Shown here in pieces: positions 24,294-58,271 of a stretch of 64,000 nucleotides of DNA. The position numbers and the translations under genes were made by a program. The notes beneath the pieces are model-generated. The model had not been told where the DNA came from. It searched no databases and was given only the letters and a program-made list of their open reading frames with translations. The DNA is from Minisyncoccota bacterium. GTDB taxonomy: Bacteria > Patescibacteriota > Minisyncoccia > Phycocordibacterales > GWA1-40-21. The stretch's first letter is position 1, and each line of letters opens with the position of its first letter. The stretch spans positions 212,403 to 276,402 of the forward strand of contig JBAZRH010000001.1 in assembly GCA_041663045.1 (NCBI GenBank), written 5' to 3'.

Positions 24294-24677
24294 CTAAAGT
24301 AAATACCGACCAAATATTAAAATGCCGACAATAAGCGCTGTGCATGCTGATATCAATACAGCTCCAGCAGCAATATCTTTTGTATCTCGAGCAAATGGAT
24401 GATATTCGGGAGATGTCAGGTCCATATCTACTTCAATAGCTGTGTTAAAGGCTTCGGAAACAAGCACAAAACCTCCAGCAAGTGTCAGGAATATCCATTC
24501 TATATGGGTGATTTTCAGATAAACACCAAGAAAAACTGCCAAGATTAAGACGACAATATGAATCCACGCATTATGTGTAGACTTCACAAAAATCCAAATC
24601 CCCCTCCCCGCATGCGCAAAACTCTGCGCCCTTTTGATTATTGAGAATACTTTTTTGTTATTTTGATTGTCTTGCAT
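24294..24677 (-). CDS. dgkA: Diacylglycerol kinase / undecaprenol kinase family (DgkA)
   Basis: 127 aa with 3 TM helices and the EAFNTAIE motif. Confidence 0.8.
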   Translation of the reverse strand: MQDNQNNKKVFSIIKRAQSFAHAGRGIWIFVKSTHNAWIHIVVLILAVFLGVYLKITHIEWIFLTLAGGFVLVSEAFNTAIEVDMDLTSPEYHPFARDTKDIAAGAVLISACTALIVGILIFGRYLL

Positions 24678-24689
24678 ATCAGAATTGTA

Positions 24690-25691
24690 TCATGATAACT
24701 TATTTATTTCTTTCAAAAAACTGTGATACTTTTTAGCAATAGCAAGACGAGATTGATTGTTTTCTGAAAGCATATATTGATATGGGCAAACGATCAGTTG
24801 ACAATAAAGTATAAAATAATTATCAAGCCCTCTTGGTATTTTATTATTTGTCGATTTTTCATATCCTCTCAAAACTTCATCAAAATATCTTTTACCTAAA
24901 AACACGTAAATATCTGCGGCAATTCTATAAACGTTTAAGAATTTATATCCAGTAAGCCAATCGATTTTAGGTGCATAAGTGTCGAGTGGAAGGAAAGTTC
25001 CGTCTTTATCTAAGACAGCATTATCCGCATGAATATCTAAACACGGGCCGACTAGATTATTATTTTCAATAAACCAATTTTTATTTTGTTTTATATATTC
25101 TGATAATTTATTTAAATATTTATCACACTCACCTTTTTCAAAATATTTCCCTGCGGCCTTTACCCAGGCGGTCATATCTACAAGCCTAGTTTCCTGATCT
25201 TCATACAGACTTTTATTTATCTTAATCTTAGGTAAGGAAGCTTCTCTTTTGCCAAGTTCAAAACCGATTGAATAGCAATCCTGCATTGAAATACTATTTT
25301 TTAACAGTCTTTCAATGAGTGAATATGACATATCGATTTTATTCATCACTATTACAAATTCATCAGCAATGTCATCTGCTTCGGTGAATTTTATTTTGCC
25401 ATCTTCGAGAACTACTCCTCTTAAATCTGTATAAATCTCAGGGCTTAACTTATTATTCCATTCGAAGTCATTTCTTGTAAAAGACAATCGATTTTCCTTA
25501 ATGGAGAGATCATTAAAATCTTTATTGAAAAAAGCACTGTCGTCCATATATATTTTATAGACTTTATCATTACACAAAAATAGATTTGATATAGCGGTTG
25601 TAATCCTCTTCGGCTTACAATTTGCTCCCGGGAAATCTCCTTCAGCAAATTTATCAATTATTTGTTTGCCTTTGGTCATATTATTCTTCAA
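24690..25691 (-). CDS. Protein-kinase-like / aminoglycoside-phosphotransferase-like fold small-molecule kinase (putative)
   Basis: 333 aa. Lys in VYKIY (beta3-like), catalytic-loop-like LDIHADNAVLD, and an IDW metal-binding motif resembling APH/choline-kinase IDxE. Confidence 0.45.
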   Translation of the reverse strand: MKNNMTKGKQIIDKFAEGDFPGANCKPKRITTAISNLFLCNDKVYKIYMDDSAFFNKDFNDLSIKENRLSFTRNDFEWNNKLSPEIYTDLRGVVLEDGKIKFTEADDIADEFVIVMNKIDMSYSLIERLLKNSISMQDCYSIGFELGKREASLPKIKINKSLYEDQETRLVDMTAWVKAAGKYFEKGECDKYLNKLSEYIKQNKNWFIENNNLVGPCLDIHADNAVLDKDGTFLPLDTYAPKIDWLTGYKFLNVYRIAADIYVFLGKRYFDEVLRGYEKSTNNKIPRGLDNYFILYCQLIVCPYQYMLSENNQSRLAIAKKYHSFLKEINKLS

Positions 25692-26421
25692 TCTTTACTG
25701 ACCTATCACTTCTGTCGAAAATCACCTCTTTCGTTTTACCGTCAAAAGTGACTTTTAGTTTTATGATGCTTTTTTTATCTGATTCATAAGCTTCTATATA
25801 AACGGATTCACCAAAAGATGGTACGTTATATTTGCCCACATTCTCAATACCAAAGACATCATCTATAATATGGGTAATTACTTCAAAGTGCGAAACAGCT
25901 ATTACGTGTGGTGTTTTGTCCTCGGGTGGATGCTTTTCAAACCAACGAATCAAATATTCAAAGCTTCTATATAAACGCTCTTTTTTATTTTGCTGTGGCT
26001 CGATAATATCTGGTCTTTCATTAAAAAGAGGGTCTTTGTAGTGGTCTTCAGCTAATTTTTCGGGGCTAGTAGAGGATTTATTGAAATATTCAATAATAGT
26101 GTCGAGATCGTTTAAATCGCTACTGCGTAGCTGATCTATCTCGGTCTTAGGAACATCTTTTAGTCCGGCAGATTCAGCAACGAAATCTATTGTGCCTTTA
26201 GCTCGTCTTGCTGGGGAGTGTACTAATATAATATCGTCATTTTCTGAAATAGTACCGTCTTCACGAATTTTTTTACCTTTTCTTATCGCGTTTTCGACAC
26301 CCTCCGGAGTCAAATCGTGTCCCTCATCTTTATAAAAAGGTTTTTCATGTCTCATCAAAGTCACCTTAAACAGTAGTTTTGGCTCGACTTCAACTCCTTT
26401 TATAAATTCTTTTGACTCCAT
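25681..26421 (-). CDS. Histidine phosphatase superfamily (phosphoglycerate-mutase-like) protein
   Basis: 246 aa. N-terminal LMRHEKP (RHG-type motif), a second His in ILVHSPARRA, and a C-terminal SHFEVI. Confidence 0.65.
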   Translation of the reverse strand: MESKEFIKGVEVEPKLLFKVTLMRHEKPFYKDEGHDLTPEGVENAIRKGKKIREDGTISENDDIILVHSPARRAKGTIDFVAESAGLKDVPKTEIDQLRSSDLNDLDTIIEYFNKSSTSPEKLAEDHYKDPLFNERPDIIEPQQNKKERLYRSFEYLIRWFEKHPPEDKTPHVIAVSHFEVITHIIDDVFGIENVGKYNVPSFGESVYIEAYESDKKSIIKLKVTFDGKTKEVIFDRSDRSVKIEE

Positions 26422-26435
26422 AAAATTATAAGATT

Positions 26436-27881
26436 TTAATTAATTTTCTTTACGATTCCCTTTTCCGCATCCACTTCCACCATATCTCCGTCTTTGAAGA
26501 TTTTAGTAGCTATTTTAGTATTTGTAATACACGGTTTTTTCATTTCTCTTGCTACTATTGCCGCGTGACACAATATGCCTCCCTCATCGGTGACAAAAGC
26601 TGCAGCTTTTTCCATAGCTGGTATAAAATTTGGAAAAGTCATCACTGCAACCAAAATATCTCCTCTTTCGACTTTTTTAATATCATCTCCCGTATAAACT
26701 ACTTTAGCTTTACCAGAAACAACACCCCTAAATGCAATATTTCCAGACAATGTACTGACCCTTTCTGGTTCTTTAGTAATATTCATTAAATCTGCCATAG
26801 ATTTACTGCCAGACAAAAGCGTGTATGATTCGCCGTTTAAAACAAAAGCGAAAAAAGATTTCCTTCTATTCAATTCATCGTTTGAAATACCCGCCTTTAG
26901 ATTTTCAGCTATTTCAATTAATTCCGGAAAAGTTAAATAGATTACAGATTCTGTGTCAAAACCCGCTCTTTTGGCTATTTCATAAAATAGATTCTTTGCC
27001 TTATACCCCGAGCGATACATAATATCCGTCCTCCATGTTCTCACGTATGAGAAATCTTGCGTAATTGTCGCCAAGTGATTTGCAGCATCACTCATCTTCA
27101 AGTCTTCAACAAGTTTTATTCTCTCTTCTGCGGAACTCTTTTTCACCTCATCGAGAAGTGCCGTTTCTTCTTCCGGATTTTTCCCTTGCTTAAATAGATT
27201 GTCAATTCTTTCTATTATATCCTCTCTCTTCCACTCTCTATTCCACCAATATCCTCTCGTGCCTATCCAAGAAAAATTCTTTAAATGCTCTTCTAGAAGA
27301 CGATTAAAATCTTTATTCTTATCTTTATGTGCTTTAGCCAACGATAAAAAACTCCTCTCTTCTAGAGTATGCTCGTTTTCTTTTTCCGATTGCGTCAAAA
27401 TAGAGACCTCATCTAATTTCTTCTTTTCATCTTTACCTGGAAGTAAATCCATCAATTCTTTCAACAGAATCCTGTCTACGATAGCTAGTGGAATTAAAAA
27501 ACAATGCGAAGCTACTCCTAATTCATAATATCTATTTATATATTCTACGAGCTGTTTCTGGGACAATTTAGAATAATCGATTTCAGAAATAGAAGATGCA
27601 AATTCATAAAATTTACCGACTTGAGAAATGAGATTATCTCTAAATGAATACAAGAAATCTGTGCCATTACTTTTAAACAACGCCAACAGACCATCGAGTT
27701 CTTTCTTACTATGAATTATCTCGCCAGTACCCTTAAATATCGCATTCTTAAAACTAAAAGGTATTCCGACTACTTTATCCATAGCAGTATATGCTCTTAT
27801 GGTTAATGAATAGAAAAGCAGACTTTCTTTCCTATTTACCACATCTACCCAGTCGACTTTTTTTAAATCTTCTATCTCCAT
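26436..27881 (-). CDS. PEP-utilising-enzyme mobile (phosphohistidine swivel) domain protein, paralog A, with a novel N-terminal helical domain
   Basis: 481 aa. C-terminal GNIAFRGVVSGKAKVV...GGILCHAAIVAREMKKPCITNT...DGDMVEVDAEKGIVKKIN matches the PEP-utilizers swivel domain, catalytic His included. No ATP-grasp or TIM barrel. Confidence 0.7.
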   Translation of the reverse strand: MEIEDLKKVDWVDVVNRKESLLFYSLTIRAYTAMDKVVGIPFSFKNAIFKGTGEIIHSKKELDGLLALFKSNGTDFLYSFRDNLISQVGKFYEFASSISEIDYSKLSQKQLVEYINRYYELGVASHCFLIPLAIVDRILLKELMDLLPGKDEKKKLDEVSILTQSEKENEHTLEERSFLSLAKAHKDKNKDFNRLLEEHLKNFSWIGTRGYWWNREWKREDIIERIDNLFKQGKNPEEETALLDEVKKSSAEERIKLVEDLKMSDAANHLATITQDFSYVRTWRTDIMYRSGYKAKNLFYEIAKRAGFDTESVIYLTFPELIEIAENLKAGISNDELNRRKSFFAFVLNGESYTLLSGSKSMADLMNITKEPERVSTLSGNIAFRGVVSGKAKVVYTGDDIKKVERGDILVAVMTFPNFIPAMEKAAAFVTDEGGILCHAAIVAREMKKPCITNTKIATKIFKDGDMVEVDAEKGIVKKIN

Positions 27882-27883
27882 AT

Positions 27884-29275
27884 TTAATTTAATTTCTTCA
27901 CCACCCCTCTCTCCGCATCCACTTCCACCAAGTCACCGTCACGCAGCACTCTTGTGCCTATTCTAGTGCCAACAATACATGGGATGCCCAGTTCCCTTGC
28001 TACTATCGCCGCGTGACAAGTTAAGCCCCCTTCATCTGTAATTATTGCTTTTGCCAATTTCATTATAGGCAAGAAATCTGGTCGTGTCATCTCTGCAACA
28101 ATGATATTTCCACTTTCAAATTTACTAAATTCATTTGAACCGATTATTATTGATACATTGCCTTTAGCAAAACCCCTTGCAGCGGGGGTACCAGAAAATG
28201 TTTTAATATCTTTATCAACCTTGATTTTTTCTTCAACAAACACACCTTCTCTATACGATATTTCACTATTATTCCATAGGCATGTAACATACTCTCTCTT
28301 TTCAATTCTATTAGTTGTCTCCTCGGGACTACTAATTAAATCTCCGTATTCATCCCAAAAGAGTCTATCGGCGATATTCACATCAATCTTTAGTCTACTA
28401 CATGCCTCATCTAAGAAACGGTACATTGTATAATTGCCAATCAAATTTAGTTTTTTCCTTTGATCTCTAATGACCTCAGATATTTTTAATAGTTCCAAAA
28501 TACCTATCTCTTCTTGGTTTAGTTCGAGATTGTTTAAATTAAATCCAGTCTTATCTCTGTTTGTATGCGTCGCACCTTTAAATTTTGTCTGTATCTTATC
28601 AGGTGTCATTTTTCCACTATATTTATATGAAGCATCAATATAGAAAAATAACTTATAATAATCTTCAATCAGCTCAGCACGTTTAGATTCATCTTTCTCT
28701 TCCCTTATTCTTAAAAGAAGTCTCTCATTTTCAATCATGAAACTCGTATATGGAGAATTTAAATGATTTTCAATAATTTCATTGGTATTTTTATATCTCT
28801 TAGCAAGAACCTTATGTAGGTATTCAGAAATCACTCCATCATAGACGAAAGTTATCGCCCCTGGGGCATACTTTTCTATATAGACTTTCATAAAATTAAA
28901 GTACTCTGAGACTAATTCCTTAGCATTCATCTTACCCATTCTCTGTATATCAAGTAGAGCTGTTTTTCTTAGAGATTCCGAGTCTTGTATAATTGAATTT
29001 TTTATTTCATCAAAATAATTCAAATTTTCTGGCTTACTAACAAATTTCGCGACGGATGCACACTCAGTCTTTATATGTTCATCTATTATCCATTCATCGG
29101 CCTTTTCTTTTAAAACATTAATAGTATTAGCATAAAAACCTATTTTAAATTTATTTATATAATCAGCACATCTTACGACTTCTGGTAAGACTGATACAGC
29201 AAATACTGAAGCAGCCATACCCGAAACCTTGTCTGCTATATAATAACCAGTCTTTATGTTTTTATTTATAGCCAT
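27884..29275 (-). CDS. PEP-utilising-enzyme mobile domain protein, paralog B
   Basis: 463 aa. C-terminal GTPAARGFAKGNVSII...GGLTCHAAIVARELGIPCIVGT...DGDLVEVDAERGVVKKLN. Confidence 0.7.
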   Translation of the reverse strand: MAINKNIKTGYYIADKVSGMAASVFAVSVLPEVVRCADYINKFKIGFYANTINVLKEKADEWIIDEHIKTECASVAKFVSKPENLNYFDEIKNSIIQDSESLRKTALLDIQRMGKMNAKELVSEYFNFMKVYIEKYAPGAITFVYDGVISEYLHKVLAKRYKNTNEIIENHLNSPYTSFMIENERLLLRIREEKDESKRAELIEDYYKLFFYIDASYKYSGKMTPDKIQTKFKGATHTNRDKTGFNLNNLELNQEEIGILELLKISEVIRDQRKKLNLIGNYTMYRFLDEACSRLKIDVNIADRLFWDEYGDLISSPEETTNRIEKREYVTCLWNNSEISYREGVFVEEKIKVDKDIKTFSGTPAARGFAKGNVSIIIGSNEFSKFESGNIIVAEMTRPDFLPIMKLAKAIITDEGGLTCHAAIVARELGIPCIVGTRIGTRVLRDGDLVEVDAERGVVKKLN

Positions 29276-30340
29276 CTATTTTAATTTCTTCACCACCCCC
29301 CTCTCCGCATCCACCTCCACCATATCTCCGTCTTTGAAGACTTGAGTGGCGATTTTGGTGCCGATTACGCAGGGTATTTTGAATTCTCGCGACATTATGG
29401 CGGCATGGGAAATTATACCACCCTCGTCTGTTACTATAGCTCCGGCTTTTCTAATCGCTATCATCAGGTCTGGCGTAGTTGAGCTAGAGAGTAAGACATT
29501 TCCTTCTTCAAACTTTTTCGCTTCCTCTTTCGTAAATACAATAGATACCTTGCCACGATATATTCCTTTGTATGCTATTTGCCCTTTAACAAGATTATCT
29601 GCACCTAGATGATCATCTAGCTTGGGTGTTACAAGTTCAATCCCTGTATTTTCAAGAATTTCTTTTATAGATTTTCCGGTATAAAGATGTCCGTCGGCGA
29701 AATAAAATTCTTTATATCTAATTTTTAACTCTTCTTCATCTGGAATATTCCCATTTATAATTTCGTGTAAAGTTACCATATCCGCATATTTACCAAGATT
29801 TGGATATAAAGAAAGGATTGTTGAGCGGACAATGTGATCCAAGGCGGGTGCAAACTTATCCGTCCTTTTCCTAAATTCCATCAATTTATCCAGAAGATCT
29901 GGATGTAGATTTTTCTGCTCAAACATTTCAACTGTCCACCAAAGACCTGCATACCAAGCCCAAGAATATTTGGCATCAGATATAAATTTCTCGAAATAAT
30001 CCTTAGAGACAGGCTCGCCTTTATCAAAAATAGCACCGACTTTTGCATAAGCTTTCTCGTTTTCTGCCAGCATATTTTGTACGTATGAATTGTCTGCTTT
30101 TATTTTCTTAAGGATTTCCCCTTTCTGCCACTCAACTTGTTGACTATCAATATACAAACTACCTTTTCCCGCTTTTCTCTCAGCCACAAAATAAGGCTTT
30201 TTTAAGATGATATTATCAAGATACGGCAAAGGACCGGTCTCGGTATCCAATCCGATTTCATACAATGCTAATGTAAAATCACGATGTCCAAATAATTCTA
30301 ATTTTCTTTTTTGTTTGGAAGTCATAAAAGTTTTATTCAT
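29276..30340 (-). CDS. PEP-utilising-enzyme mobile domain protein, paralog C
   Basis: 354 aa. C-terminal GQIAYKGIYRGKVSIV...GGIISHAAIMSREFKIPCVIGT...DGDMVEVDAERGVVKKLK. Confidence 0.7.
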   Translation of the reverse strand: MNKTFMTSKQKRKLELFGHRDFTLALYEIGLDTETGPLPYLDNIILKKPYFVAERKAGKGSLYIDSQQVEWQKGEILKKIKADNSYVQNMLAENEKAYAKVGAIFDKGEPVSKDYFEKFISDAKYSWAWYAGLWWTVEMFEQKNLHPDLLDKLMEFRKRTDKFAPALDHIVRSTILSLYPNLGKYADMVTLHEIINGNIPDEEELKIRYKEFYFADGHLYTGKSIKEILENTGIELVTPKLDDHLGADNLVKGQIAYKGIYRGKVSIVFTKEEAKKFEEGNVLLSSSTTPDLMIAIRKAGAIVTDEGGIISHAAIMSREFKIPCVIGTKIATQVFKDGDMVEVDAERGVVKKLK

Positions 30341-31058
30341 TTACAACAAAGTTCTGTCCGTTTATATCTTTAGCTTCATCCGAAGCAAGAAACACCGCCT
30401 TTTCTGCAATATTTTCTGGTTCAACAAGTTTATGATTTGGTCTTGAGGCTAATTTTTTGTCTAATTCTTCTTTAGGGGCCGTGAGCCAATACCCAGCATT
30501 TGCAGCACCTGGAGAGACCGAATTTGCCCTACCGAAAGGAGCCAGCAATTTTGCATAAGACTGGGTGATATTTATCACACCTGCTTTGGCTGCTGCGTAT
30601 GAGATAGCGTCCGGTTGACCACTTAATCCGTGTACCGAAGCAATGCTCACAATCACTCCACTTTTCTGCTTTTGGAATCGCTCTATAACATATTTTGAAA
30701 TATTCATCATTGATACGAGATTTTGTTGCAATGATTTTACCCAAATATCTGAAGTGCCATTCCATTCATCTCCATCTACATATCTACCGGCATTATTTAC
30801 AAGTACGTCAATTTTCCCAAATTCTTTTACAACTTTCTCGACGGTCGCTTTCGCATCTTTTTCATTAATCAAATCAGCTTGAACGGCGATTGCTTTTACT
30901 CCGAACTTTTTGGCTTTCTCTATAACACTTTCAGCTCCAGCTTTATTACTTTTATATGTAATAGCAATATCTGCACCATTTTGTGCAAACATTATGGCGG
31001 TAGCCTCTCCGATACCACTTGAACCGCCAGTTATGAGGATTGATTTTGAATTGGACAT
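30333..31058 (-). CDS. Short-chain dehydrogenase/reductase (SDR)
   Basis: 241 aa. TGGSSGIGEAT cofactor motif, NNAG, and a catalytic YxxxK (YAAAKAG). Overlaps the paralog C start by 8 nt. Confidence 0.85.
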   Translation of the reverse strand: MSNSKSILITGGSSGIGEATAIMFAQNGADIAITYKSNKAGAESVIEKAKKFGVKAIAVQADLINEKDAKATVEKVVKEFGKIDVLVNNAGRYVDGDEWNGTSDIWVKSLQQNLVSMMNISKYVIERFQKQKSGVIVSIASVHGLSGQPDAISYAAAKAGVINITQSYAKLLAPFGRANSVSPGAANAGYWLTAPKEELDKKLASRPNHKLVEPENIAEKAVFLASDEAKDINGQNFVVNE

Positions 31059-31059
31059 A

Positions 31060-31629
31060 TTATTGTTTAATAATTTCTTCCAATAATTCAGGAAAGGCGT
31101 CGGTTTTCATATTTCTAAAACAGAAATGTCCGTAATTTTTAAAGTCTCTGATTTTAATATTTTTTACTTTTTCTCTGATAATCTTTACACTATCCTGCAT
31201 TTCTTTTTCGTCATTAGTAGAATTGAATACGGTAATACCTCTCGTCTTGTTCACAAGATTTTCGTCTATATTGAAATCAAACATCTTGGTTTTTTCCATC
31301 CCGTTCGGATTAATCCACGGAGCGACCAATACAACTTTTCCAACCTTTATGTTGTTTTCACTTAGCCACCTGACTATAAATCCAGCTCCACAACTATGGC
31401 CTATAAGGTGAGTGTTCTCATCGATTTCAAAACGCTCAAATACCGAACACCATTTTTTATAATCCGGATTATATGGCTCTGGCATTTCTGGAGTTTGTGC
31501 AAGAATACCTTTTGCAATTAATTGTTTTTGAAGCCAAGGTAGCCAGTGCTTATTTGATTCAGATGAACCTTCTAAATCAAAATATTGCTCCTTAGATGGC
31601 ATACCATGAATGATAATTGCGGTTTTCAT
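31060..31629 (-). CDS. Alpha/beta hydrolase (RBBP9/YdeN-like serine hydrolase)
   Basis: 189 aa. GHSCG nucleophile elbow (IGHSCGAGF) and a C-terminal GHF. Confidence 0.65.
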   Translation of the reverse strand: MKTAIIIHGMPSKEQYFDLEGSSESNKHWLPWLQKQLIAKGILAQTPEMPEPYNPDYKKWCSVFERFEIDENTHLIGHSCGAGFIVRWLSENNIKVGKVVLVAPWINPNGMEKTKMFDFNIDENLVNKTRGITVFNSTNDEKEMQDSVKIIREKVKNIKIRDFKNYGHFCFRNMKTDAFPELLEEIIKQ

Positions 31630-32038: not shown

Positions 32039-33319
32039 CTATAAAAGATTACAATTACTGAGATTAACAAAATCAAATCCTTCTTCTATAATTCCACTAA
32101 AATTGATTCGGGCTTTTGCACCCTTTATAATAATTAATTCATTAAATTGTGGATTAAATGTACAAAGAAGAAAGACTTTACTTTCTATATCTTTACTTAT
32201 AAAAACACGGTAGCCAGAGTTCGTTTCGTAAGGTTCCTTAATATCAAAAATATAACCGGTATCGTAGACCTCTGTTCCAGATATTGAATTAATAAAGTTC
32301 GACTTTTCTAAAGATGTAGAAAATTGCCTCAGTTTTCCTACTAAATCAAAGGCTGATTGTTTAGTAGAGGTTGAATTAGGATAAATTCGATTTTCTATAT
32401 TTTGATTGTCAGTGGATATATCTTTATTGATTTCTAAACTTGATATTTTATAGTTCACAGGACCAAGGGAGATACTATCTGGTTTGATTCCAAATATAAG
32501 ATATAAAAGAAAAAGTATTATAGGAATAACTATCATCATAAAGATTCCTTTATCTCTTGAAAAATGAAAAATAAATTTATTGTTTTTATCGACATTTACT
32601 TTAGATATTTTATCTGCAACGGCTTTATTATCTTCTTTCTCTCTTACTTTGACTTCTTTATTCGTTGATAATAAGACGCAATGATCCAGGCACACAAGAC
32701 TGTCAGTCACATTACGTATTTCGCCTTCAGTGGTTATGGTATCTCCAATTATTAATAAAGATACTTCTGGTATAGCTGGTAAATCAAAATTCAAGGCAAT
32801 ATTAACGTTATCATGATCTTTTATATAAAAAGAAACGTAATCACTCATAACTGAATCTCCAGAAATTATTTTCCCTGTGACTTTTATGTGGTGTCCACTG
32901 AAACTTGTCTTTAAAACATTTTTTTTCAATGCAAGAGGGGTAATCTTGATTAAATCAGTCATACGTTTTGGAGAAAAATCTCTTACAAACACTCCTTTTA
33001 TTGTTCCTTCTAATGTATTTTCTTTCAAATAATCTTCAAATAATACAAGGAACGGTTCGAAGTAGTCCCAAGCACTAACCCCTGTTGATGTTCTATAACT
33101 AGTAGCGAAATCATGTTGATCTACATGTACAGAGACGTGGTTATATTTCTTATCAAATTTTCTAAGTTTTAGAATCCAATTCTCACTTTTATAAGTATTT
33201 CTACTTACAAAATTAAGTATCTTGTTGGTCAGACCCATTAATTCATCAAAAGTCAGTAAGCCATCTTTGATTGCTTGCTTCTTACTATTAATTTCTTCGA
33301 TTAATTCATTGTTATTCAT
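32039..33319 (-). CDS. Hypothetical protein with a single internal TM helix
   Basis: 426 aa. Cytoplasmic N-domain of about 235 aa, TM segment FMMIVIPIILFLLYLIFGI, and a C-domain of about 170 aa. No recognisable motifs. Confidence 0.5.
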   Translation of the reverse strand: MNNNELIEEINSKKQAIKDGLLTFDELMGLTNKILNFVSRNTYKSENWILKLRKFDKKYNHVSVHVDQHDFATSYRTSTGVSAWDYFEPFLVLFEDYLKENTLEGTIKGVFVRDFSPKRMTDLIKITPLALKKNVLKTSFSGHHIKVTGKIISGDSVMSDYVSFYIKDHDNVNIALNFDLPAIPEVSLLIIGDTITTEGEIRNVTDSLVCLDHCVLLSTNKEVKVREKEDNKAVADKISKVNVDKNNKFIFHFSRDKGIFMMIVIPIILFLLYLIFGIKPDSISLGPVNYKISSLEINKDISTDNQNIENRIYPNSTSTKQSAFDLVGKLRQFSTSLEKSNFINSISGTEVYDTGYIFDIKEPYETNSGYRVFISKDIESKVFLLCTFNPQFNELIIIKGAKARINFSGIIEEGFDFVNLSNCNLL

Positions 33320-33423: not shown

Positions 33424-34218
33424 TTACTTGTTTCTATCTATCATGCGCAACTGTGCAACCAAAGTGTCTAAAAACCACAAAGCATCACGTTCTGTGGGAG
33501 TCGCGGAGTTTCCGGCATGACGAGCACCCGATGCATCTGAGGCAAATTGGTTAAGAGCTTCAAGTACTTTTTTCTGTTCCTTATGTATTTTATCTTGCTT
33601 TTCGAACTCCTTTATTGCATCACCAAATCTTGAAGCACCTGAATTTGCTTTCATATATCCTTCTGCAGCAACAAAAATATCTTTTACAATATCTTCCGGT
33701 TTCGATTTTCGTCCCATCAGATTTCCGACAGCTTGAAAAAATCTATCACAAAATTCTGGGTATGGAGCTAGGATAGATTTAGTAGAGTCAATTTTTTCTG
33801 CGCTGTCTTTATCAACAATAAGCACAACTCGCCCCTCTTTGTTAATTTCATATACAGAACCGGAAAGATTAAAAGCTTTGTAAGTTTCAACAATGACTTG
33901 AGGTCGTCTTGTGTAATATAACTCCTTGCTTAAATCTAAGAATATTTCTACAACAGTAAAGACTTCGTGAAATTTGCCTGTCTGAATAATATCAAGGGGA
34001 TTTTTGTTAGGAAATTCCTGATGAGTTTTGTATGTGAAATCATCCGGTTCTATTGACCACTGGTTATCATTACCGAGAGATACATTTCCGCCCACGAATT
34101 TTTCGACGATAACTAACAAACGATCACGAAGAGACTTGGAAACGTCTTCGTGTCCAGAGTATTCAACGACATATTCATTTCTTCTTGAGAAATAGGCCAT
34201 GTTAATTAGATTATTCAA
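33424..34218 (-). CDS. Hypothetical protein (possible stand-alone defence/Abi-like protein; unassigned)
   Basis: 264 aa, soluble, no recognisable catalytic motif. C-terminal SGARHAGNSATPTERDALWFLDTLV. Confidence 0.45.
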   Translation of the reverse strand: MNNLINMAYFSRRNEYVVEYSGHEDVSKSLRDRLLVIVEKFVGGNVSLGNDNQWSIEPDDFTYKTHQEFPNKNPLDIIQTGKFHEVFTVVEIFLDLSKELYYTRRPQVIVETYKAFNLSGSVYEINKEGRVVLIVDKDSAEKIDSTKSILAPYPEFCDRFFQAVGNLMGRKSKPEDIVKDIFVAAEGYMKANSGASRFGDAIKEFEKQDKIHKEQKKVLEALNQFASDASGARHAGNSATPTERDALWFLDTLVAQLRMIDRNK

Positions 34219-54685: not shown

Positions 54686-54718
54686 AGCCCCGAAATATTT
54701 TCGGGGCTACCTTTTTAC
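54686..54718. terminator. Bidirectional terminator between convergent genes
   Basis: agccccgaaa-tatt-ttcggggct with a T-run after it and an A-run on the opposite strand. Confidence 0.75.
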
Positions 54719-55887
54719 CCCAGAATTTTTCTAGTATCTTCAGCTATCTGCTTCATTTCATTTGTCTTTACTACTTCAACCCTTATCCTTGAATCATCAG
54801 TAGATATGGCGGTATTTAATCTATCTGTATCTTCATTCTTCTTTTCATCAAGTTTAATCCCAAAAGCATCAAGACCATTGCAAATCCTTTGCCTCATCTT
54901 AAACGATCTCTCACCCACTGTACCGGAAAAGACAAGTAAATCCAAACCACCAAGCGCGGCTACATATGCCCCGATTTGTTTTTGTATTCTATAGGCATAA
55001 ATATCCAAAGCATTTTTTACATCAGTATTTTCATTCTCCACCTTAAATAATTCACGAACATCATCACTCTTACCAGACAAACCAAGAAGACCGCATTTTT
55101 TATTTAAATATTGTCTTAACTTTGTCCCTTTCAAACCCAGAACTTCCGAAAGATAAGCCACTGCGCCAGAATCGATATCTCCAACCCTTGTCGCCATCAC
55201 CATACCTTCAAGTGGAGTAAAACCCATGCTTGTATCTATACTTTTTCCATTTTTTAGTGCAGTAATACTCACACCACCACCCACATGACAAACGATCATT
55301 TTTTCAGCCATCTTTCCCGTCTCTTTCAGTTTATTTACAATAGAACCAAGGGATATACCATGATATCCATATCTATAAATTTCATATTCTTTAGAGTCAG
55401 AAAGTGGAATTGCATAAAATCTAGATTTATCTGGCATCCCTGTGTGAAAAGCACTATCGGAAACTCCAACAATCGGTACACTCTTACCAAAAAATTTTAA
55501 TAGCTTTTTGATTTCAGCCGAGATAGCCTCAATATGAAGAGGTGCTTTCTCCCCTGCGTTTTTTATATTTTTCAAAAACTCTTTATCTATAATATGATTC
55601 TGTTCAAAATAAACTCCTGGAGCTACGACTCTAATACCTACTCCAAAAATATCTTCTTTTGATAAAATAAATGTCTTTTTAATTAGAATAGAGACTAAAT
55701 AATCTAGTGATTTTTCAAATTCCCTGCTTGTAATTTTGGACTTTTCACTACCACTGTCACAAACAAATGTGGAAATATACTCACCATTTTCTGTCTCAAT
55801 ATGTAAAAAGGCGGCCTCTTTATCTCCCACAAATAAAGAATATTTTTTTGACGCACTACCTGTATTTACAATTAAATATTTATGCAT
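54715..55887 (-). CDS. ackA: Acetate kinase
   Basis: 390 aa. N-terminal LIVNTGSASKKYSLF and the acetokinase signature regions VVHLGGGSS-like (CHVGGGVSI). Confidence 0.9.
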   Translation of the reverse strand: MHKYLIVNTGSASKKYSLFVGDKEAAFLHIETENGEYISTFVCDSGSEKSKITSREFEKSLDYLVSILIKKTFILSKEDIFGVGIRVVAPGVYFEQNHIIDKEFLKNIKNAGEKAPLHIEAISAEIKKLLKFFGKSVPIVGVSDSAFHTGMPDKSRFYAIPLSDSKEYEIYRYGYHGISLGSIVNKLKETGKMAEKMIVCHVGGGVSITALKNGKSIDTSMGFTPLEGMVMATRVGDIDSGAVAYLSEVLGLKGTKLRQYLNKKCGLLGLSGKSDDVRELFKVENENTDVKNALDIYAYRIQKQIGAYVAALGGLDLLVFSGTVGERSFKMRQRICNGLDAFGIKLDEKKNEDTDRLNTAISTDDSRIRVEVVKTNEMKQIAEDTRKILG

Positions 55888-55910
55888 TCGGTTTAATTTA
55901 AATTAATAAT

Positions 55911-58271
55911 TTATCTCCAAGTCCACTTATCTATCTCTTCTGGATCAGCACCTTTTTCTTTTATATAATCTAGAGTATTCTTCGTCTTTTGCCTGTAAAG
56001 TTCTATGATTCTGGCTGCTTTGCTCTCCTCCACTACTCCTTTCGCAGAAAGCTTTTCAAGTGCTTCCATAAGCAAAGTATATCTGTCGGTACCATTTCTC
56101 ACATGTAAATCAAACGGTGTTGTCGTAGAACCACTTTCTAAATATCCGTGTACAGAAAATCTATCTTTTGCATTTTGATAATCAAAAAGTGATTGTTTAA
56201 GAGTTTCTGGATATCCATGAAAATTAAATATTACCGGCTTATCTTTTGTAAAATATTCATCAAATTTCTCATCACTCATTTTGGTGATAGAACTCCCGAT
56301 TGTATTTGGCGAAAGCTCCACAATATTTATAAATCGTGCTTTCGCCTCCGGTGCCTCTTTTTTAAGTAAACTAATGGCAGCTAGGGTTTCTTTCACAAGA
56401 TACTGTCCACAGGCAGAGAAAATAATGTCTGGATTTTCCGAGCTTACAAAATCCCAAATAGAAAGTCCGTCAGCGATTTCCTTTTGCGCTTGTGCTTGTG
56501 TGAGCCAAATATTTTCTATTGTCTTTTCAGCAACAATTATATTTATCTCATTTCTTGACTTAAGAGACTTCTTCATTATCTCTACCGCTTCATTGCCATC
56601 TGCCGGAAAATATACATTTATAAAGTCATTGTGTTTTTGTAAAAGACCGTCTATAAAACCAGGATTTTGATGTGAAAAACCATTGTGTTCTTGCCTCCAG
56701 CCACTTGAGGTCAAAAGGTATGTAAGCGAGGGTACATCGCCCCTCCAGGCCGTCTTTCTTGCGATTTTAAGGAACTTACTGTACTGGTCCGCCATACTTG
56801 TCACTATTGGCACAAAAGCCTCGTAGGAAGCAAAAATAGCGAATCTGCCACTAAGCGTATATCCCTGTGATAGGCCCTGCATGGAGTGTTCTGAAAGCAT
56901 CTCTATTACACGACCATCTCTGGCAAAATCTGAATCCCACTCAAAGAGTGGCCCCATGAAAGTCCTCTTCGTAACAGTAAAGATATCTTGTAGACGATTC
57001 GAGTATGTCTCGTCTGGTGAAAAAAGTCTGATATTTCTTTTTTCTTTGTTTAGCTTCATTACCTCGGCTAAATATGCACCGATTTTTCTCATTGAACTTA
57101 TTTGTTTTTCTCCTGGATATAGAATCTTTTCTTCAAAACTCGCTGTCTCTGGCAAAATAAGTCCACGTGAAATATCACCTTTCTTTATTCCCATTGTTAC
57201 TGGATTATCCCCCATTCTCAGATTTTCTTTAGGAATATTTTCAATAATTTCTTTTGTAAAACCGGTTTCTGGGTTGAAAAGTTCTTCAAATTTGTAAGAC
57301 TTGAGCCATTTTGCTATAGCTTTCAATTCAACTTTATTTGTTTTTGCATCTTTACCAACAACCTGATGTGAAAGACTATTCCCCTCTATTTTCTGTCCTT
57401 CAAGTTCTTTGATACCAGTCCAACCCTTTGGCGTCTTCACAATAATCATCGGAAATCTTGCAAAATATGTATCGGTTTTTTCTGTACCTTCTCTCGCTTC
57501 TCTTTGTATTTTTATAATAGACGCGTACGCTTTATCTAAAGCCTTTACCATTTTTCTGTAAACTATTTCACCCTTGCCTTCCACAATAATAGGGTCGTAA
57601 CCATAACCTTTGAAAAGCGCTCGCAAATCTTTATTATTCATTCTGCCAAATATCGTCGGGCCGGAAATTTTATATCCATTTAAATGTAAAATCGGAAGTA
57701 CCGCGCCGTTGTGTGCAGGATCGATAAATTTATTTAAGTGCCATGCTGTAGCAAGCGGACCAGTTTCCGCTTCGCCATCTCCGATAAGACAAGTTGCTAT
57801 AAGACTTGGATTATCAAGCACTGCTCCATAGGCGGTTGAAAGTGAATATCCAAGCTCTCCACCTTCAAGTATTACGCCGGGAGTTATCGGACTTGAATGA
57901 CTTGGAAACCCATAAGGCCAACTAAATTGTTTTGAAAAATAAGAAATGCCTTTCTCGTCTTTTGTCGCATCAGCATAATATTTACCAAGTGTTCCCTCAA
58001 GAAAAAGATTGGCTTGCAAAGCCGGAAATCCGTGACCTGGGCCTAAAAGAAACATCATATTTGTGCCGGTCTTATTTATCAGATTGTTGAGACATGCGTA
58101 AACAAAATTTATCCCTGGACATGTGCCCCAGTGCCCTAAAAGTCGAGGTTTGATATCATCAAAAGTCAGTTTATTATCAAGTAAGAAATTACTCTGTAAA
58201 TATATCTGAGTAACCGTGAGGTAGTTGGTAGTTCTTACGTACTTTTTAATTCTCTCTACTTCCTGATTCAT
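55911..58271 (-). CDS. xfp: Xylulose-5-phosphate/fructose-6-phosphate phosphoketolase
   Basis: 786 aa. LLGHWGTCPGINFVYACLN matches the phosphoketolase signature. TPP-binding GDGEAETG. Co-oriented with ackA. Confidence 0.9.
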   Translation of the reverse strand: MNQEVERIKKYVRTTNYLTVTQIYLQSNFLLDNKLTFDDIKPRLLGHWGTCPGINFVYACLNNLINKTGTNMMFLLGPGHGFPALQANLFLEGTLGKYYADATKDEKGISYFSKQFSWPYGFPSHSSPITPGVILEGGELGYSLSTAYGAVLDNPSLIATCLIGDGEAETGPLATAWHLNKFIDPAHNGAVLPILHLNGYKISGPTIFGRMNNKDLRALFKGYGYDPIIVEGKGEIVYRKMVKALDKAYASIIKIQREAREGTEKTDTYFARFPMIIVKTPKGWTGIKELEGQKIEGNSLSHQVVGKDAKTNKVELKAIAKWLKSYKFEELFNPETGFTKEIIENIPKENLRMGDNPVTMGIKKGDISRGLILPETASFEEKILYPGEKQISSMRKIGAYLAEVMKLNKEKRNIRLFSPDETYSNRLQDIFTVTKRTFMGPLFEWDSDFARDGRVIEMLSEHSMQGLSQGYTLSGRFAIFASYEAFVPIVTSMADQYSKFLKIARKTAWRGDVPSLTYLLTSSGWRQEHNGFSHQNPGFIDGLLQKHNDFINVYFPADGNEAVEIMKKSLKSRNEINIIVAEKTIENIWLTQAQAQKEIADGLSIWDFVSSENPDIIFSACGQYLVKETLAAISLLKKEAPEAKARFINIVELSPNTIGSSITKMSDEKFDEYFTKDKPVIFNFHGYPETLKQSLFDYQNAKDRFSVHGYLESGSTTTPFDLHVRNGTDRYTLLMEALEKLSAKGVVEESKAARIIELYRQKTKNTLDYIKEKGADPEEIDKWTWR

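What the first reader, a model, noticed from the sequence alone, without database searches (positions are those of the whole stretch)
24690..31629. Operon-like cluster: three tandem PEP-utilising swivel-domain proteins with an APH-like kinase, a histidine phosphatase, an SDR and an alpha/beta hydrolase
Three consecutive minus-strand genes (26436-27881, 27884-29275, 29276-30340) each end in a complete PEP-utilizers phosphohistidine swivel domain. The domain carries the catalytic His (GG[IL][LTI][CS]HAAI[VM][AS]RE) and the shared tail DGD[ML]VEVDAE[KR]G[VI]VKK.

In known enzymes this domain shuttles phosphate between an ATP-grasp domain and a substrate-binding domain. Pyruvate phosphate dikinase, PEP synthase, PTS enzyme I and rifampin phosphotransferase all follow that design. 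Here none of those partner domains is attached. Each paralog instead has a different helical N-terminal domain of about 270-400 aa.

The three genes are packed with 2-15 nt gaps or overlaps alongside a protein-kinase-like/APH-like protein (24690-25691), a histidine-phosphatase-family protein (25681-26421), an SDR (30333-31058) and a serine hydrolase (31060-31629). A kinase, a phosphatase and three phospho-His carriers together suggest a phosphoryl-relay or small-molecule phosphorylation/inactivation module. An RPH-like split system is one possibility. I do not recognise it as a described system.
Basis: partly seen in the sequence, partly recalled or inferred. Interest (0 to 1): 0.8.

Follow-up and report, generated by a model that had tools for sequence, protein, structure and literature searches.

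The report
Split rifampin-phosphotransferase-like dikinase trio in Patescibacteria
The three tandem genes encode the substrate-binding plus phospho-histidine half of two-part, rifampin-phosphotransferase-like kinases, a small sample of large and apparently undescribed arrays (up to 20 genes sharing one ATP-binding partner) in ultra-small bacteria and archaea, while the neighbouring kinase and phosphatase form a separate module.

Summary
Three co-oriented genes (26436-30340, minus strand) each end in a PF00391 swivel domain with the catalytic His, and none has an ATP-grasp or PEP-binding domain.

What looks new is the scale. In 83 related loci, labelled almost entirely as Patescibacteria or DPANN archaea, these genes form arrays of up to 20 anciently diverged paralogs. 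A single stand-alone ATP-grasp gene (PPDK_N, about 315 aa) often flanks the array, and in some archaea everything is fused into one ORF of up to 4201 aa.

This 64-kb window has no ATP-grasp gene.

The APH-fold kinase and the His-phosphatase are a separate, conserved two-gene module found elsewhere without swivel genes. However, other His-phosphatase subfamilies are significantly enriched beside arrays. The SDR and serine hydrolase show no conserved linkage.

Substrates are unknown.

The parts
26436..27881 (-). Paralog A (481 aa): N-terminal RPH RIF-binding-type helical domain (about residues 1-345) plus a C-terminal phosphohistidine swivel domain. It is the H-type component of a two-component dikinase.
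26565..26567 (-). Codon of the catalytic His439 of paralog A (motif TDEGGILCHAAIVARE).
   Evidence: His is conserved in at least 90% of 60 homologues.
27884..29275 (-). Paralog B (463 aa): a divergent RIF-binding-type helical domain plus swivel domain, from a rarer subfamily.
   Evidence: Pfam PF00391 at residues 386-457. hhalign of its N-terminal domain against the A family gives probability 99.5%, E 4e-22, 282 columns. Nine orthologues, most 32-38% identical. One orthologue lies in an array of 8 swivel genes plus a PPDK_N (L089).
28013..28015 (-). Codon of the catalytic His421 of paralog B (motif TDEGGLTCHAAIVARE). B keeps a Thr at His-2, as PEP synthase does.
29276..30340 (-). Paralog C (354 aa): short-class member with a truncated helical domain (its C-terminal half) plus swivel domain.
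   Evidence: Pfam PF00391 at residues 277-348. A profile of 48 short-class sequences against the A class gives probability 95.8%, E 7e-9, aligning C 95-229 to A 220-365. Orthologues occur in L061 and L020.
29405..29407 (-). Codon of the catalytic His312 of paralog C (motif TDEGGIISHAAIMSRE).
25681..26421 (-). Histidine-phosphatase superfamily protein (246 aa, RHE variant of the RHG motif). It is the orthologue of phosphatases that pair with the APH-like kinase. It may also act with the swivel proteins, but that is not shown.
   Evidence: Pfam His_Phos_1 E 3e-7. 66.5% identity to the kinase-paired phosphatase of L005. His_Phos-like genes in general are enriched beside arrays: 21/346 near versus 2/580 far, p 8e-8.
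24690..25691 (-). APH/choline-kinase-fold small-molecule kinase (333 aa, or 329 aa from the ATG start). It belongs to a separate phosphatase-kinase two-gene module.
   Evidence: AlphaFold2 pLDDT 92.7. Foldseek hits APH(2'')-IVa and a choline/ethanolamine kinase family protein, E 1e-5, TM 0.44-0.60. K46, D219, H221, D223, N224 and D237 are invariant. A phosphatase gene lies directly upstream in 6 of 6 loci.
30333..31058 (-). Short-chain dehydrogenase/reductase (241 aa). It overlaps paralog C by 8 nt, but there is no conserved association with swivel arrays.
   Evidence: Pfam adh_short_C2 E 1e-46. Absent from the neighbourhoods of the 80 swivel loci fetched with the swivel-family profile.
31060..31629 (-). 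Serine hydrolase (PF06821, 189 aa). A neighbour with no conserved association with swivel arrays.
   Evidence: Pfam E 9e-11. Found in none of the other loci.

Best explanation
Paralogs A, B and C are three H-type components of two-component, RPH-like small-molecule dikinases. An H-type component is a substrate-binding helical domain plus a phosphohistidine swivel domain.

Inferred mechanism, by homology with RPH, HpeHI and PpsAB:
1. A separately encoded ATP-grasp protein (PPDK_N type, about 315 aa, not present in this window) binds ATP.
2. It transfers the beta-phosphate of ATP to the conserved His (A His439, B His421, C His312).
3. The swivel domain swings back to its own helical domain.
4. 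It phosphorylates a bound small-molecule hydroxyl group. The net reaction is ATP + X + H2O -> AMP + Pi + X-P.

The three strongly diverged helical domains imply three different substrates. The trio is a small version of ancient multi-paralog arrays that share one ATP-grasp and are widespread in Patescibacteria and DPANN archaea.

The adjacent His-phosphatase and APH-fold kinase are an independently conserved module. The SDR and hydrolase are probably just co-transcribed neighbours.

Shown here: domain architecture, fold, His conservation, genomic association with PPDK_N, and the fusions. Inferred: catalytic activity, the phosphoryl donor, and small-molecule substrates. The substrates themselves are unknown.
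For: Architecture and fold. RPH is the only PDB hit that covers the helical domain as well as the swivel domain.

B and C share the same N-terminal domain family.

The catalytic His is essentially universal in 310 family ORFs.

Link to the ATP-grasp:
- A PPDK_N-like ORF lies within +-10 kb in 30 of 83 loci, as 31 ORFs in total. 23 of those ORFs are separate from any swivel gene and 8 are fused.
- A stand-alone PPDK_N is the most frequent neighbour family, found in 20 loci.
- It is enriched within 2 genes of a swivel gene: 20/346 versus 3/580, p 1e-6.
- Further independent examples are L003 and L089.

Rosetta-stone fusions: single ORFs carry one PPDK_N plus 3-8 units. Pfam confirms 1 PPDK_N plus 8 PEP-utilizers in the 3761-aa ORF of L046. 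The single-unit fusions L062 (833 aa) and L054 (683 aa) have the RPH order of domains.

Distinct specificities: 217 of 232 array members match another genome better than their own array.

Biochemical precedent (PMC12167813): HpeI is the ATP-grasp and HpeH is the RIF-binding-like plus swivel component. Mutating the His abolishes kinase activity. No stable HpeH:HpeI complex forms, which is compatible with one ATP-grasp serving many H components.
Against: - No PPDK_N or other ATP-grasp gene lies anywhere in the 64-kb window. The rest of the 428-kb contig and of the MAG could not be examined.
- About 53% of multi-gene arrays (28 of 53) also lack a PPDK_N within +-10 kb.
- A (481 aa) is markedly shorter than HpeH (71 kDa) or the RIF-binding domain of RPH. 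Sequence identity to RPH is only 15-20%, so the substrate pocket may differ fundamentally.
- No member of the CPR/DPANN family has been characterised.
- All NCBIfam hits are far below their cut-offs.
Confidence: 0.65

Rival explanations
1. ATP-grasp-independent phosphotransferases. The H components are charged by a phosphorylated small molecule, or by PEP or another donor, and pass the phosphate to a second acceptor. Alternatively they run in reverse, harvesting phosphoryl groups from scavenged host metabolites. Neighbouring phosphatases would recycle the products.
For: HpeH alone catalyses phosphotransfer from 4-phosphoacetophenone to acetovanillone (PMC12167813). There is no ATP-grasp in the window. 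28 of 53 multi-gene arrays have no PPDK_N within 10 kb. His_Phos-like genes are enriched beside arrays.
Against: PPDK_N is the most frequent neighbour and is fused to the units in several archaea, which argues that ATP is the normal donor. The HpeH-alone activity reported was slow, at 2.7 nmol/min/mg. The absence of PPDK_N within 10 kb may simply reflect the limits of the fetched flanks or of short contigs.
Confidence: 0.15
2. The APH-like kinase, His-phosphatase and three swivel proteins, perhaps with the SDR and hydrolase, form one integrated phosphorelay or inactivation operon. The kinase charges the pathway or the swivel His, and the phosphatase resets it.
For: Very tight co-directional packing, with 0-14 nt gaps or overlaps. 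No ATP-grasp is available locally. The His-phosphatase lies directly next to paralog A. His_Phos-like genes recur beside arrays elsewhere, including one between the PPDK_N and the array in L058. There is a weak SixA (phosphohistidine phosphatase) hit, E 0.003.
Against: The kinase family is absent from the 80 swivel loci fetched with the swivel-family profile. The phosphatase-kinase pair recurs in 5 other loci with no swivel gene within the 8-10 kb flanks. In 2 of those loci the phosphatase is an unrelated Inositol_P enzyme, which suggests the pair acts on a small-molecule phosphate. The window's phosphatase is the orthologue of the kinase-paired ones. The SDR and hydrolase do not recur next to arrays. 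Patescibacterial genomes pack unrelated genes in long co-directional runs. APH-fold kinases phosphorylate hydroxyl groups and are not known to phosphorylate histidine (established knowledge).
Confidence: 0.08
3. The helical domains bind proteins or other macromolecules, as the helical subdomain of PTS enzyme I binds HPr. The arrays would then be phospho-His signalling or protein-modifying relays rather than small-molecule kinases.
For: Enzyme I N-terminal domains appear among the weaker structural hits (E 1e-4 to 1e-3). The substrates are entirely unknown.
Confidence: 0.05
4. Fragmented or decaying PEP synthase or PPDK genes (pseudogene pieces).
For: The best sequence hits of the swivel domain are PEP synthases. 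Public annotations call these proteins PEP synthase, COG0574 or K01007.
Against: The N-terminal domains are neither ATP-grasp nor PEP-binding TIM barrel. Full-length orthologues of about 480 aa are conserved across hundreds of 50%-identity clusters in two domains of life. The ORFs are intact and the catalytic His is conserved. NCBIfam PEP_synth scores 99-120 bits against a cut-off of 740.
Confidence: 0.02

Closest known systems
Two-component small-molecule dikinases: HpeHI (Rhodococcus), CreHI (Corynebacterium) and phenylphosphate synthase PpsAB (Thauera/Aromatoleum), as described in PMC12167813
   Same: The same split architecture. One protein carries the RIF-binding-type helical substrate domain plus the C-terminal swivel His domain (HpeH/CreH/PpsA). 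A separate protein of about 315-340 aa is the PPDK_N ATP-grasp (HpeI/CreI/PpsB). Both share the T/SxxGGxxxH motif. The transient H:I interaction fits shared use of one ATP-grasp.
   Different: The known systems are 1:1 pairs in aromatic-catabolism clusters of free-living bacteria, and their H components are about 600-640 aa. Here the H components are 354-481 aa. They occur as 3 to 20 anciently diverged paralogs per ATP-grasp, or fused into polyproteins, in Patescibacteria and DPANN. No aromatic-catabolism genes are nearby. In this window no ATP-grasp was found. Sequence relatedness to HpeH/CreH/PpsA was not measured.
Rifampin phosphotransferase RPH (PDB 5hv1, 5fbs) and the PRK06241 family, which includes the prodigiosin ligases PigC/RedH/HapC
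   Different: RPH is a single polypeptide of about 865 aa with an N-terminal ATP-grasp, which A, B and C lack. The NCBIfam RIF_Ptrans_rph model scores 47-64 bits against a cut-off of 999. There is no evidence that rifamycins are the substrate.
PEP synthase (PpsA, K01007) and pyruvate phosphate dikinase
   Same: The swivel domain is most similar in sequence to that of PEP synthase (8a8e, E 7e-23). Paralog B even keeps the GGxTCH motif with the regulatory-type Thr.
   Different: There is no PPDK_N and no PEP-utilizers_C TIM barrel, and the N-terminal domain is unrelated to either. These proteins are not PEP synthases, although public annotation often labels them so.
Aminoglycoside phosphotransferase / choline kinase family (for the gene at 24690-25691)
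   Same: The fold matches (Foldseek probability 1.0, TM 0.44-0.60). The ATP-binding Lys, the catalytic-loop Asp/Asn and the metal-binding Asp are conserved.
   Different: There is no hit to Pfam APH (PF01636) or to any sequence family. It is a tiny family of 29 proteins found only in Patescibacteria, and it is always paired with an upstream phosphatase.

Membership tests
Two-component RPH-like dikinase, H component (HpeH/CreH/PpsA type) | C-terminal PEP-utilizers swivel domain with the T/SxxGGxxxH catalytic motif | tested here: met
   PF00391 E 1e-23 to 1e-26 in A, B and C. The TDEGGxxxH motif is present in each. The His is conserved across the family.
Two-component RPH-like dikinase, H component (HpeH/CreH/PpsA type) | RIF-binding-type helical substrate domain N-terminal to the swivel domain | tested here: met
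Two-component RPH-like dikinase, H component (HpeH/CreH/PpsA type) | No ATP-grasp or PEP/pyruvate-binding domain in the same polypeptide | tested here: met
   Only PF00391 is detected.
Two-component RPH-like dikinase, H component (HpeH/CreH/PpsA type) | A separately encoded ATP-grasp (PPDK_N-only, HpeI/PpsB-like) partner | tested here: inconclusive
In related loci a stand-alone PPDK_N flanks the arrays (20 loci) or is fused to the units.
Two-component RPH-like dikinase, H component (HpeH/CreH/PpsA type) | ATP-dependent dikinase activity that needs both components and the catalytic His | not testable with these tools
   Biochemical. Shown for HpeHI in PMC12167813.
Two-component RPH-like dikinase, H component (HpeH/CreH/PpsA type) | Sequence clustering with HpeH/CreH/PpsA (about 45% pairwise identity among those three) | not tested
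The size difference (354-481 aa against about 600-640 aa) suggests a distinct subfamily.
Rifamycin phosphotransferase RPH | Single three-domain polypeptide (ATP-grasp, RIF-binding domain, swivel) that passes the NCBIfam RIF_Ptrans_rph cut-off | tested here: not met
   There is no ATP-grasp. NF041857 scores 63.6, 54.9 and 46.7 bits against a cut-off of 999.
PEP synthase / PPDK | PPDK_N plus swivel plus PEP-utilizers_C TIM barrel, passing the TIGR01418 cut-off | tested here: not met
   Only the swivel domain matches. TIGR01418 scores 99-120 bits against a cut-off of 739.75. No PF01326 or PF02896 hit.
APH/choline-kinase-like kinases (gene 24690-25691) | Bilobal protein-kinase-like fold with a conserved ATP-binding Lys, catalytic-loop Asp/Asn and metal-binding Asp | tested here: met
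   Foldseek hits APH(2'')-IVa and 3dxq at E 1e-5, probability 1.0. K46, D219, H221, D223, N224 and D237 are invariant in 27 sequences. Assigning roles to these residues is an inference.
APH/choline-kinase-like kinases (gene 24690-25691) | Match to Pfam APH (PF01636) or a related sequence model | tested here: not met
   No Pfam, NCBIfam or PDB sequence hit.
Histidine phosphatase superfamily, branch 1 (gene 25681-26421) | Pfam His_Phos_1 above the gathering score, with the N-terminal RH(G) catalytic motif | tested here: met
   30.7 bits against a cut-off of 21.7. The motif is LMRHEKP, an RHE variant, with R24 and H25.

The most novel reading that the evidence does not exclude
Patescibacteria and DPANN archaea carry an ancient, previously undescribed multi-substrate phosphorylation battery. 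One ATP-grasp protein charges the swivel histidines of up to about 20 different substrate-binding modules. These modules are encoded as an array, or as one polyprotein of up to 4201 aa, and a His-phosphatase is often nearby. The battery would let these minimal-genome symbionts phosphorylate (to activate, trap or detoxify) a broad panel of host-derived or environmental small molecules. It would also account for much of the 'PEP synthase (K01007)' reported as one of the few metabolic genes left in such genomes. The window's trio would be a reduced set of this battery, here placed next to a phosphatase-kinase module that may act on related compounds.
Probability: 0.4. Interest if true: 0.8.

Novelty: new variant of a known kind. 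Interest (0 to 1): 0.62.

Why it matters
Genomes of about 0.5-1.5 Mb that have lost most metabolism still devote up to about 28 kb to arrays of these genes. The paralogs are old and are conserved across bacteria and archaea, so they are likely to be central to the lifestyle of ultra-small symbionts.

The finding also flags a probable systematic mis-annotation. These proteins are labelled PEP synthase, K01007 or COG0574. Metabolic reconstructions of DPANN and CPR organisms treat 'PEP synthase' as a retained core enzyme (bioRxiv 10.64898/2026.05.13.725050 reports it in 54 of 54 Pacearchaeales that lack glycolysis). If those calls are this family, the inferred PEP/pyruvate node is wrong.

Finally, one ATP-grasp serving many substrate modules, together with the natural polyprotein fusions, extends the recently defined two-component dikinase subfamily. 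It also offers a set of new small-molecule kinases for biochemistry.

Tried and rejected
- Tested whether the 333-aa 'APH-like' protein is a divergent PPDK_N/ATP-grasp or matches the unknown 370-aa protein of L003. BLASTP shows no similarity, and its fold is APH/choline-kinase.
- Looked for a PPDK_N anywhere in the window with tblastn, phmmer and Pfam on 20 further ORFs. None found.
- Anti-phage defence: PADLOC gives no hit for any cluster gene.
- Fragmented PEP synthase: rejected (see the rival explanations).
- The first neighbourhood script used the wrong 'window' record, so its window-derived counts were void. It was redone.
- My regex suggested that 21 swivel ORFs lack the catalytic His. 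An alignment showed that they carry it in variant motifs, apart from fragments and one truncated ORF.
- The promoter/terminator scan gave counts no higher than shuffled sequence, so it is uninformative.
- The neighbourhood of the closest relative of A (L091/L092) is a short archaeal contig with a 3-gene array and no detectable PPDK_N, so it is not decisive.
- Seven literature searches found no description of these arrays. They did find the two-component dikinase paper.
- I could not locate the ATP-grasp of this particular genome. The 428-kb source contig was not retrievable beyond the window.


Full report
**1. Observation**

| Coordinates | Gene | Size | Pfam result |
|---|---|---|---|
| 24294-24677 | DAGK-type kinase | 127 aa | DAGK_prokar, E 3e-31 |
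| 24690-25691 | 'APH-like' protein | 333 aa | none |
| 25681-26421 | His-phosphatase | 246 aa | His_Phos_1, E 3e-7 |
| 26436-27881 | paralog A | 481 aa | PEP-utilizers, E 3e-24 |
| 27884-29275 | paralog B | 463 aa | PEP-utilizers, E 2e-26 |
| 29276-30340 | paralog C | 354 aa | PEP-utilizers, E 4e-23 |
| 30333-31058 | SDR | 241 aa | adh_short_C2, E 1e-46 |
| 31060-31629 | serine hydrolase | 189 aa | Ser_hydrolase, E 9e-11 |

Spacings range from an 11-nt overlap to a 14-nt gap. In A, B and C the complete PF00391 domain sits at the C-terminus and nothing else is detected. NCBIfam matches PEP synthase, RPH, PigC/RedH and PRK08296 models only over the C-terminal 100-240 residues, and always far below the cut-offs.

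The window is ordinary Patescibacteria chromosome. It carries UvrB, TGT, Dus, Fmt, acetate kinase, phosphoketolase, BipA, TruB and two tRNAs. Public records assign the proteins to a Candidatus Paceibacterota MAG on a 428,695-bp contig.

**2. What the three proteins are**

Paralog A has more than 2,800 detectable homologues. The best 120 are nearly all about 480 aa, carry only PF00391, and come from Patescibacteria and DPANN archaea.

- A profile of 60 of these homologues aligns to Listeria rifampin phosphotransferase over profile positions 193-485 and chain residues 567-866. That reaches deep into the rifampin-binding domain.
- The AlphaFold2 model is confident (pLDDT 92.6, pTM 0.90). Residues 59-342 are all-helical, and a beta-rich swivel domain follows.
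- Foldseek against PDB puts the six RPH entries on top (E 5e-15, TMq up to 0.62, about 570 alignment columns).

So A is RPH without its ATP-grasp domain.

B's N-terminal domain is homologous to A's (hhalign probability 99.5%, E 4e-22, 282 columns). C belongs to a common short class of about 350 aa. A 48-sequence profile of that class aligns to the C-terminal half of A's helical domain (probability 95.8%, E 7e-9). The three N-terminal domains are therefore one domain family, strongly diverged, and not three different domains. B has nine genuine orthologues.

**3. The wider picture**

A scan of one genome per species returned at least 572 relatives, and I kept 80 loci. Where the record titles are informative they name Patescibacteria or DPANN lineages. 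Some binned MAGs carry odd labels such as 'uncultured Gammaproteobacteria', 'uncultured Methanosarcinales' or 'Planctomycetota', and I did not resolve those.

*Array sizes.* Among 83 non-redundant loci with +-10 kb flanks, 53 have at least 2 swivel-family genes, 43 have at least 3, and 34 have at least 4. The genes are co-oriented and mostly joined by 4-bp overlaps. Merging two overlapping loci gives 20 swivel ORFs plus one PPDK_N in 27.6 kb.

*Age.* The arrays are not recent duplications. Of 232 members, 217 have a better N-terminal match in another genome than inside their own array (median 179.5 against 34.5 bits).

*Catalytic His.* It is essentially universal.

*Family size.* An exhaustive search with A's N-terminal 370 residues finds 672 representatives of 50%-identity clusters at E <= 1e-3. 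Most are about 480 aa. A minority are 700-860 aa with the match starting near residue 330, which is the fused RPH-type architecture. A few are multi-unit proteins.

**4. The missing ATP-grasp**

A PPDK_N-like ORF lies within +-10 kb in 30 of the 83 loci. That is 31 ORFs in total: 23 separate from any swivel gene and 8 fused.

An unbiased clustering of genes within 3 positions of swivel genes puts a stand-alone PPDK_N protein of about 315 aa first, in 20 loci. It is enriched near arrays compared with farther positions in the same loci (20/346 against 3/580, p 1e-6). Pre-computed annotations show the same arrangement in L003 and L089.

In several DPANN loci the whole system is one uninterrupted ORF. 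L046 is 3761 aa with one PPDK_N followed by eight units, and Pfam confirms 1 PF01326 plus 8 PF00391. L022 is 4201 aa. L041, L025, L039 and L071 are 1637-2711 aa. L062 (833 aa) and L054 (683 aa) have the classical single-unit RPH arrangement. These fusions tie the ATP-grasp functionally to the units.

No PPDK_N was found anywhere in the 64-kb window. 28 of the 53 multi-gene arrays also lack one within 10 kb.

**5. The kinase, the phosphatase and the rest**

*Kinase.* The 333-aa protein has no sequence-family hit. It models confidently (pLDDT 92.7) as an APH/choline-kinase fold with invariant K46, D219, H221, D223, N224 and D237. Its family is tiny, with 29 proteins, all from Patescibacteria where labelled.

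*Kinase-phosphatase pairing.* In all six loci examined, a phosphatase gene lies immediately upstream on the same strand. It is His_Phos_1 in four (window, L005, L087, L088) and Inositol_P in two (L006 and the P0140 locus). No swivel gene lies within the 8-10 kb flanks of the five loci other than the window (annotations; tblastn check of L005, L006, L087 and L088). The window's phosphatase is 66.5% identical to the kinase-paired one of L005. The kinase family does not occur in any of the 80 swivel loci fetched with the swivel-family profile. So the phosphatase and kinase form an autonomous two-gene module that happens to abut the trio here.

*Phosphatases and arrays in general.* His_Phos-like genes of other subfamilies are strongly enriched next to arrays: 21/346 within two genes against 2/580 farther away, p 8e-8. 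That covers 20 of 78 loci, and 19 of the 23 genes are directly adjacent to a swivel gene. LMW-PTP-type and HAD-type phosphatases recur in three loci each. A phosphatase partner for these dikinases is therefore likely in general. It could reset the phospho-His, as SixA does, or hydrolyse products, as in the Hpe pathway where the phosphorylated intermediate is later dephosphorylated. Whether the window's copy plays that role cannot be decided.

*SDR and hydrolase.* Neither shows any conserved linkage with the arrays.

**6. Comparison with what is known**

The split architecture is described. Dexter et al. [quoted passage not shown]

- The members are HpeHI, CreHI and phenylphosphate synthase PpsAB.
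- HpeI is homologous to the RPH ATP-grasp. HpeH corresponds to the RIF-binding and swivel domains.
- The catalytic His is essential for kinase activity.
- No stable H:I complex was detected.
- HpeH alone transfers phosphate between substrates.

The window's proteins fit that architecture (see the membership tests). They are shorter, come from different lineages, and are not in aromatic-catabolism contexts.

I found no paper describing the multi-paralog arrays, the sharing of one ATP-grasp by many H modules, the polyprotein fusions or the phosphatase association. The search covers only the held library.

These proteins are publicly labelled PEP synthase, COG0574 or K01007. A 2026 preprint lists 'PEP synthase (K01007)' as retained in 54 of 54 Pacearchaeales that lack glycolysis. 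It is plausible, but untested here, that those calls are this family.

**7. Verdict**

The RPH-like split reading is right. The proposed kinase-phosphatase-carrier relay is not supported as a unit.

The window itself holds a modest three-member set of a known kind of enzyme, with no visible ATP-grasp. It does point to a large, ancient and apparently undescribed expansion in CPR and DPANN organisms that deserves follow-up. The substrates and the physiological role remain unknown.

Noticed in passing
L046:473-11758; L022:4877-17482; L041:4154-12289; L025:2553-9677; L039:6806-13459; L071:5980-10893: Giant uninterrupted ORFs (1637-4201 aa) in DPANN archaeal MAGs fuse one PPDK_N ATP-grasp with 3-8 [helical + swivel] units. 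Pfam confirms 1 PF01326 plus 8 PF00391 in L046. Whether they are made as polyproteins or processed is unknown.
   Followed up: partly
L074 + L052 (contig CAZYIM010000003.1, merged 29.9 kb): The largest array seen: 20 swivel-bearing ORFs plus one PPDK_N in 27.6 kb, mostly joined by 4-bp overlaps.
   Followed up: yes
window 24690-26421; L005, L006, L087, L088 and the P0140 locus: A conserved two-gene module: a phosphatase followed by an APH-fold kinase. The phosphatase shows non-orthologous displacement (His_Phos_1 in four loci, Inositol_P in two). The kinase family is tiny (29 proteins), is Patescibacteria-specific, and matches no sequence model. Its substrate is unknown.
   Followed up: partly
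window 33424-34218 (-): A 264-aa protein matches the PADLOC candidate defence family PDC-S32 (E 5e-18) and faintly matches Pfam AbiJ_NTD4. It lies upstream in the same co-directional gene run, next to a 426-aa protein with no family hit (32039-33319).
   Followed up: no
Neighbourhoods of swivel arrays in about 20 of 78 loci (for example L020:12651-13325, L048:13792-14706, L032:9264-9839, L058:6190-7038, L073:13790-14287): Several distinct His_Phos-like subfamilies lie directly beside or inside the arrays, many of them on the opposite strand, and they are strongly enriched (p 8e-8). LMW-PTP and HAD phosphatases, TrmB-type regulators (7 loci) and Fic/Doc proteins (4 loci) also recur.
   Followed up: partly
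window 54715-58271 (-): An acetate kinase gene and a phosphoketolase (XFP) gene lie adjacent, the typical fermentative ATP-yielding pair of Patescibacteria. In L004 the swivel genes sit next to acetate kinase and PTAC.
   Followed up: no
Public annotations of the family (P0108 and JGI names); bioRxiv 10.64898/2026.05.13.725050: Members are labelled PEP synthase, COG0574 or K01007. A 2026 preprint counts K01007 'PEP synthase' among the few metabolic genes retained in Nanobdellota orders that lack glycolysis. This may be a mis-annotation of the present family.
   Followed up: no
Swivel motif across 310 ORFs: The residue two positions before the catalytic His is Thr in about 60% of motif occurrences, as in PEP synthase and PPDK where that Thr is a regulatory phosphorylation site. 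It is Leu in about 28%. Window paralog B has Thr, A has Leu and C has Ile. HpeH-type proteins are reported to have Met at this position.
   Followed up: no
L091:5203-8997 and L092: The closest relative of paralog A (50% identity) is encoded in an archaeal context (RL10P-type ribosomal protein gene nearby). This suggests exchange of these genes between DPANN archaea and Patescibacteria.
   Followed up: no
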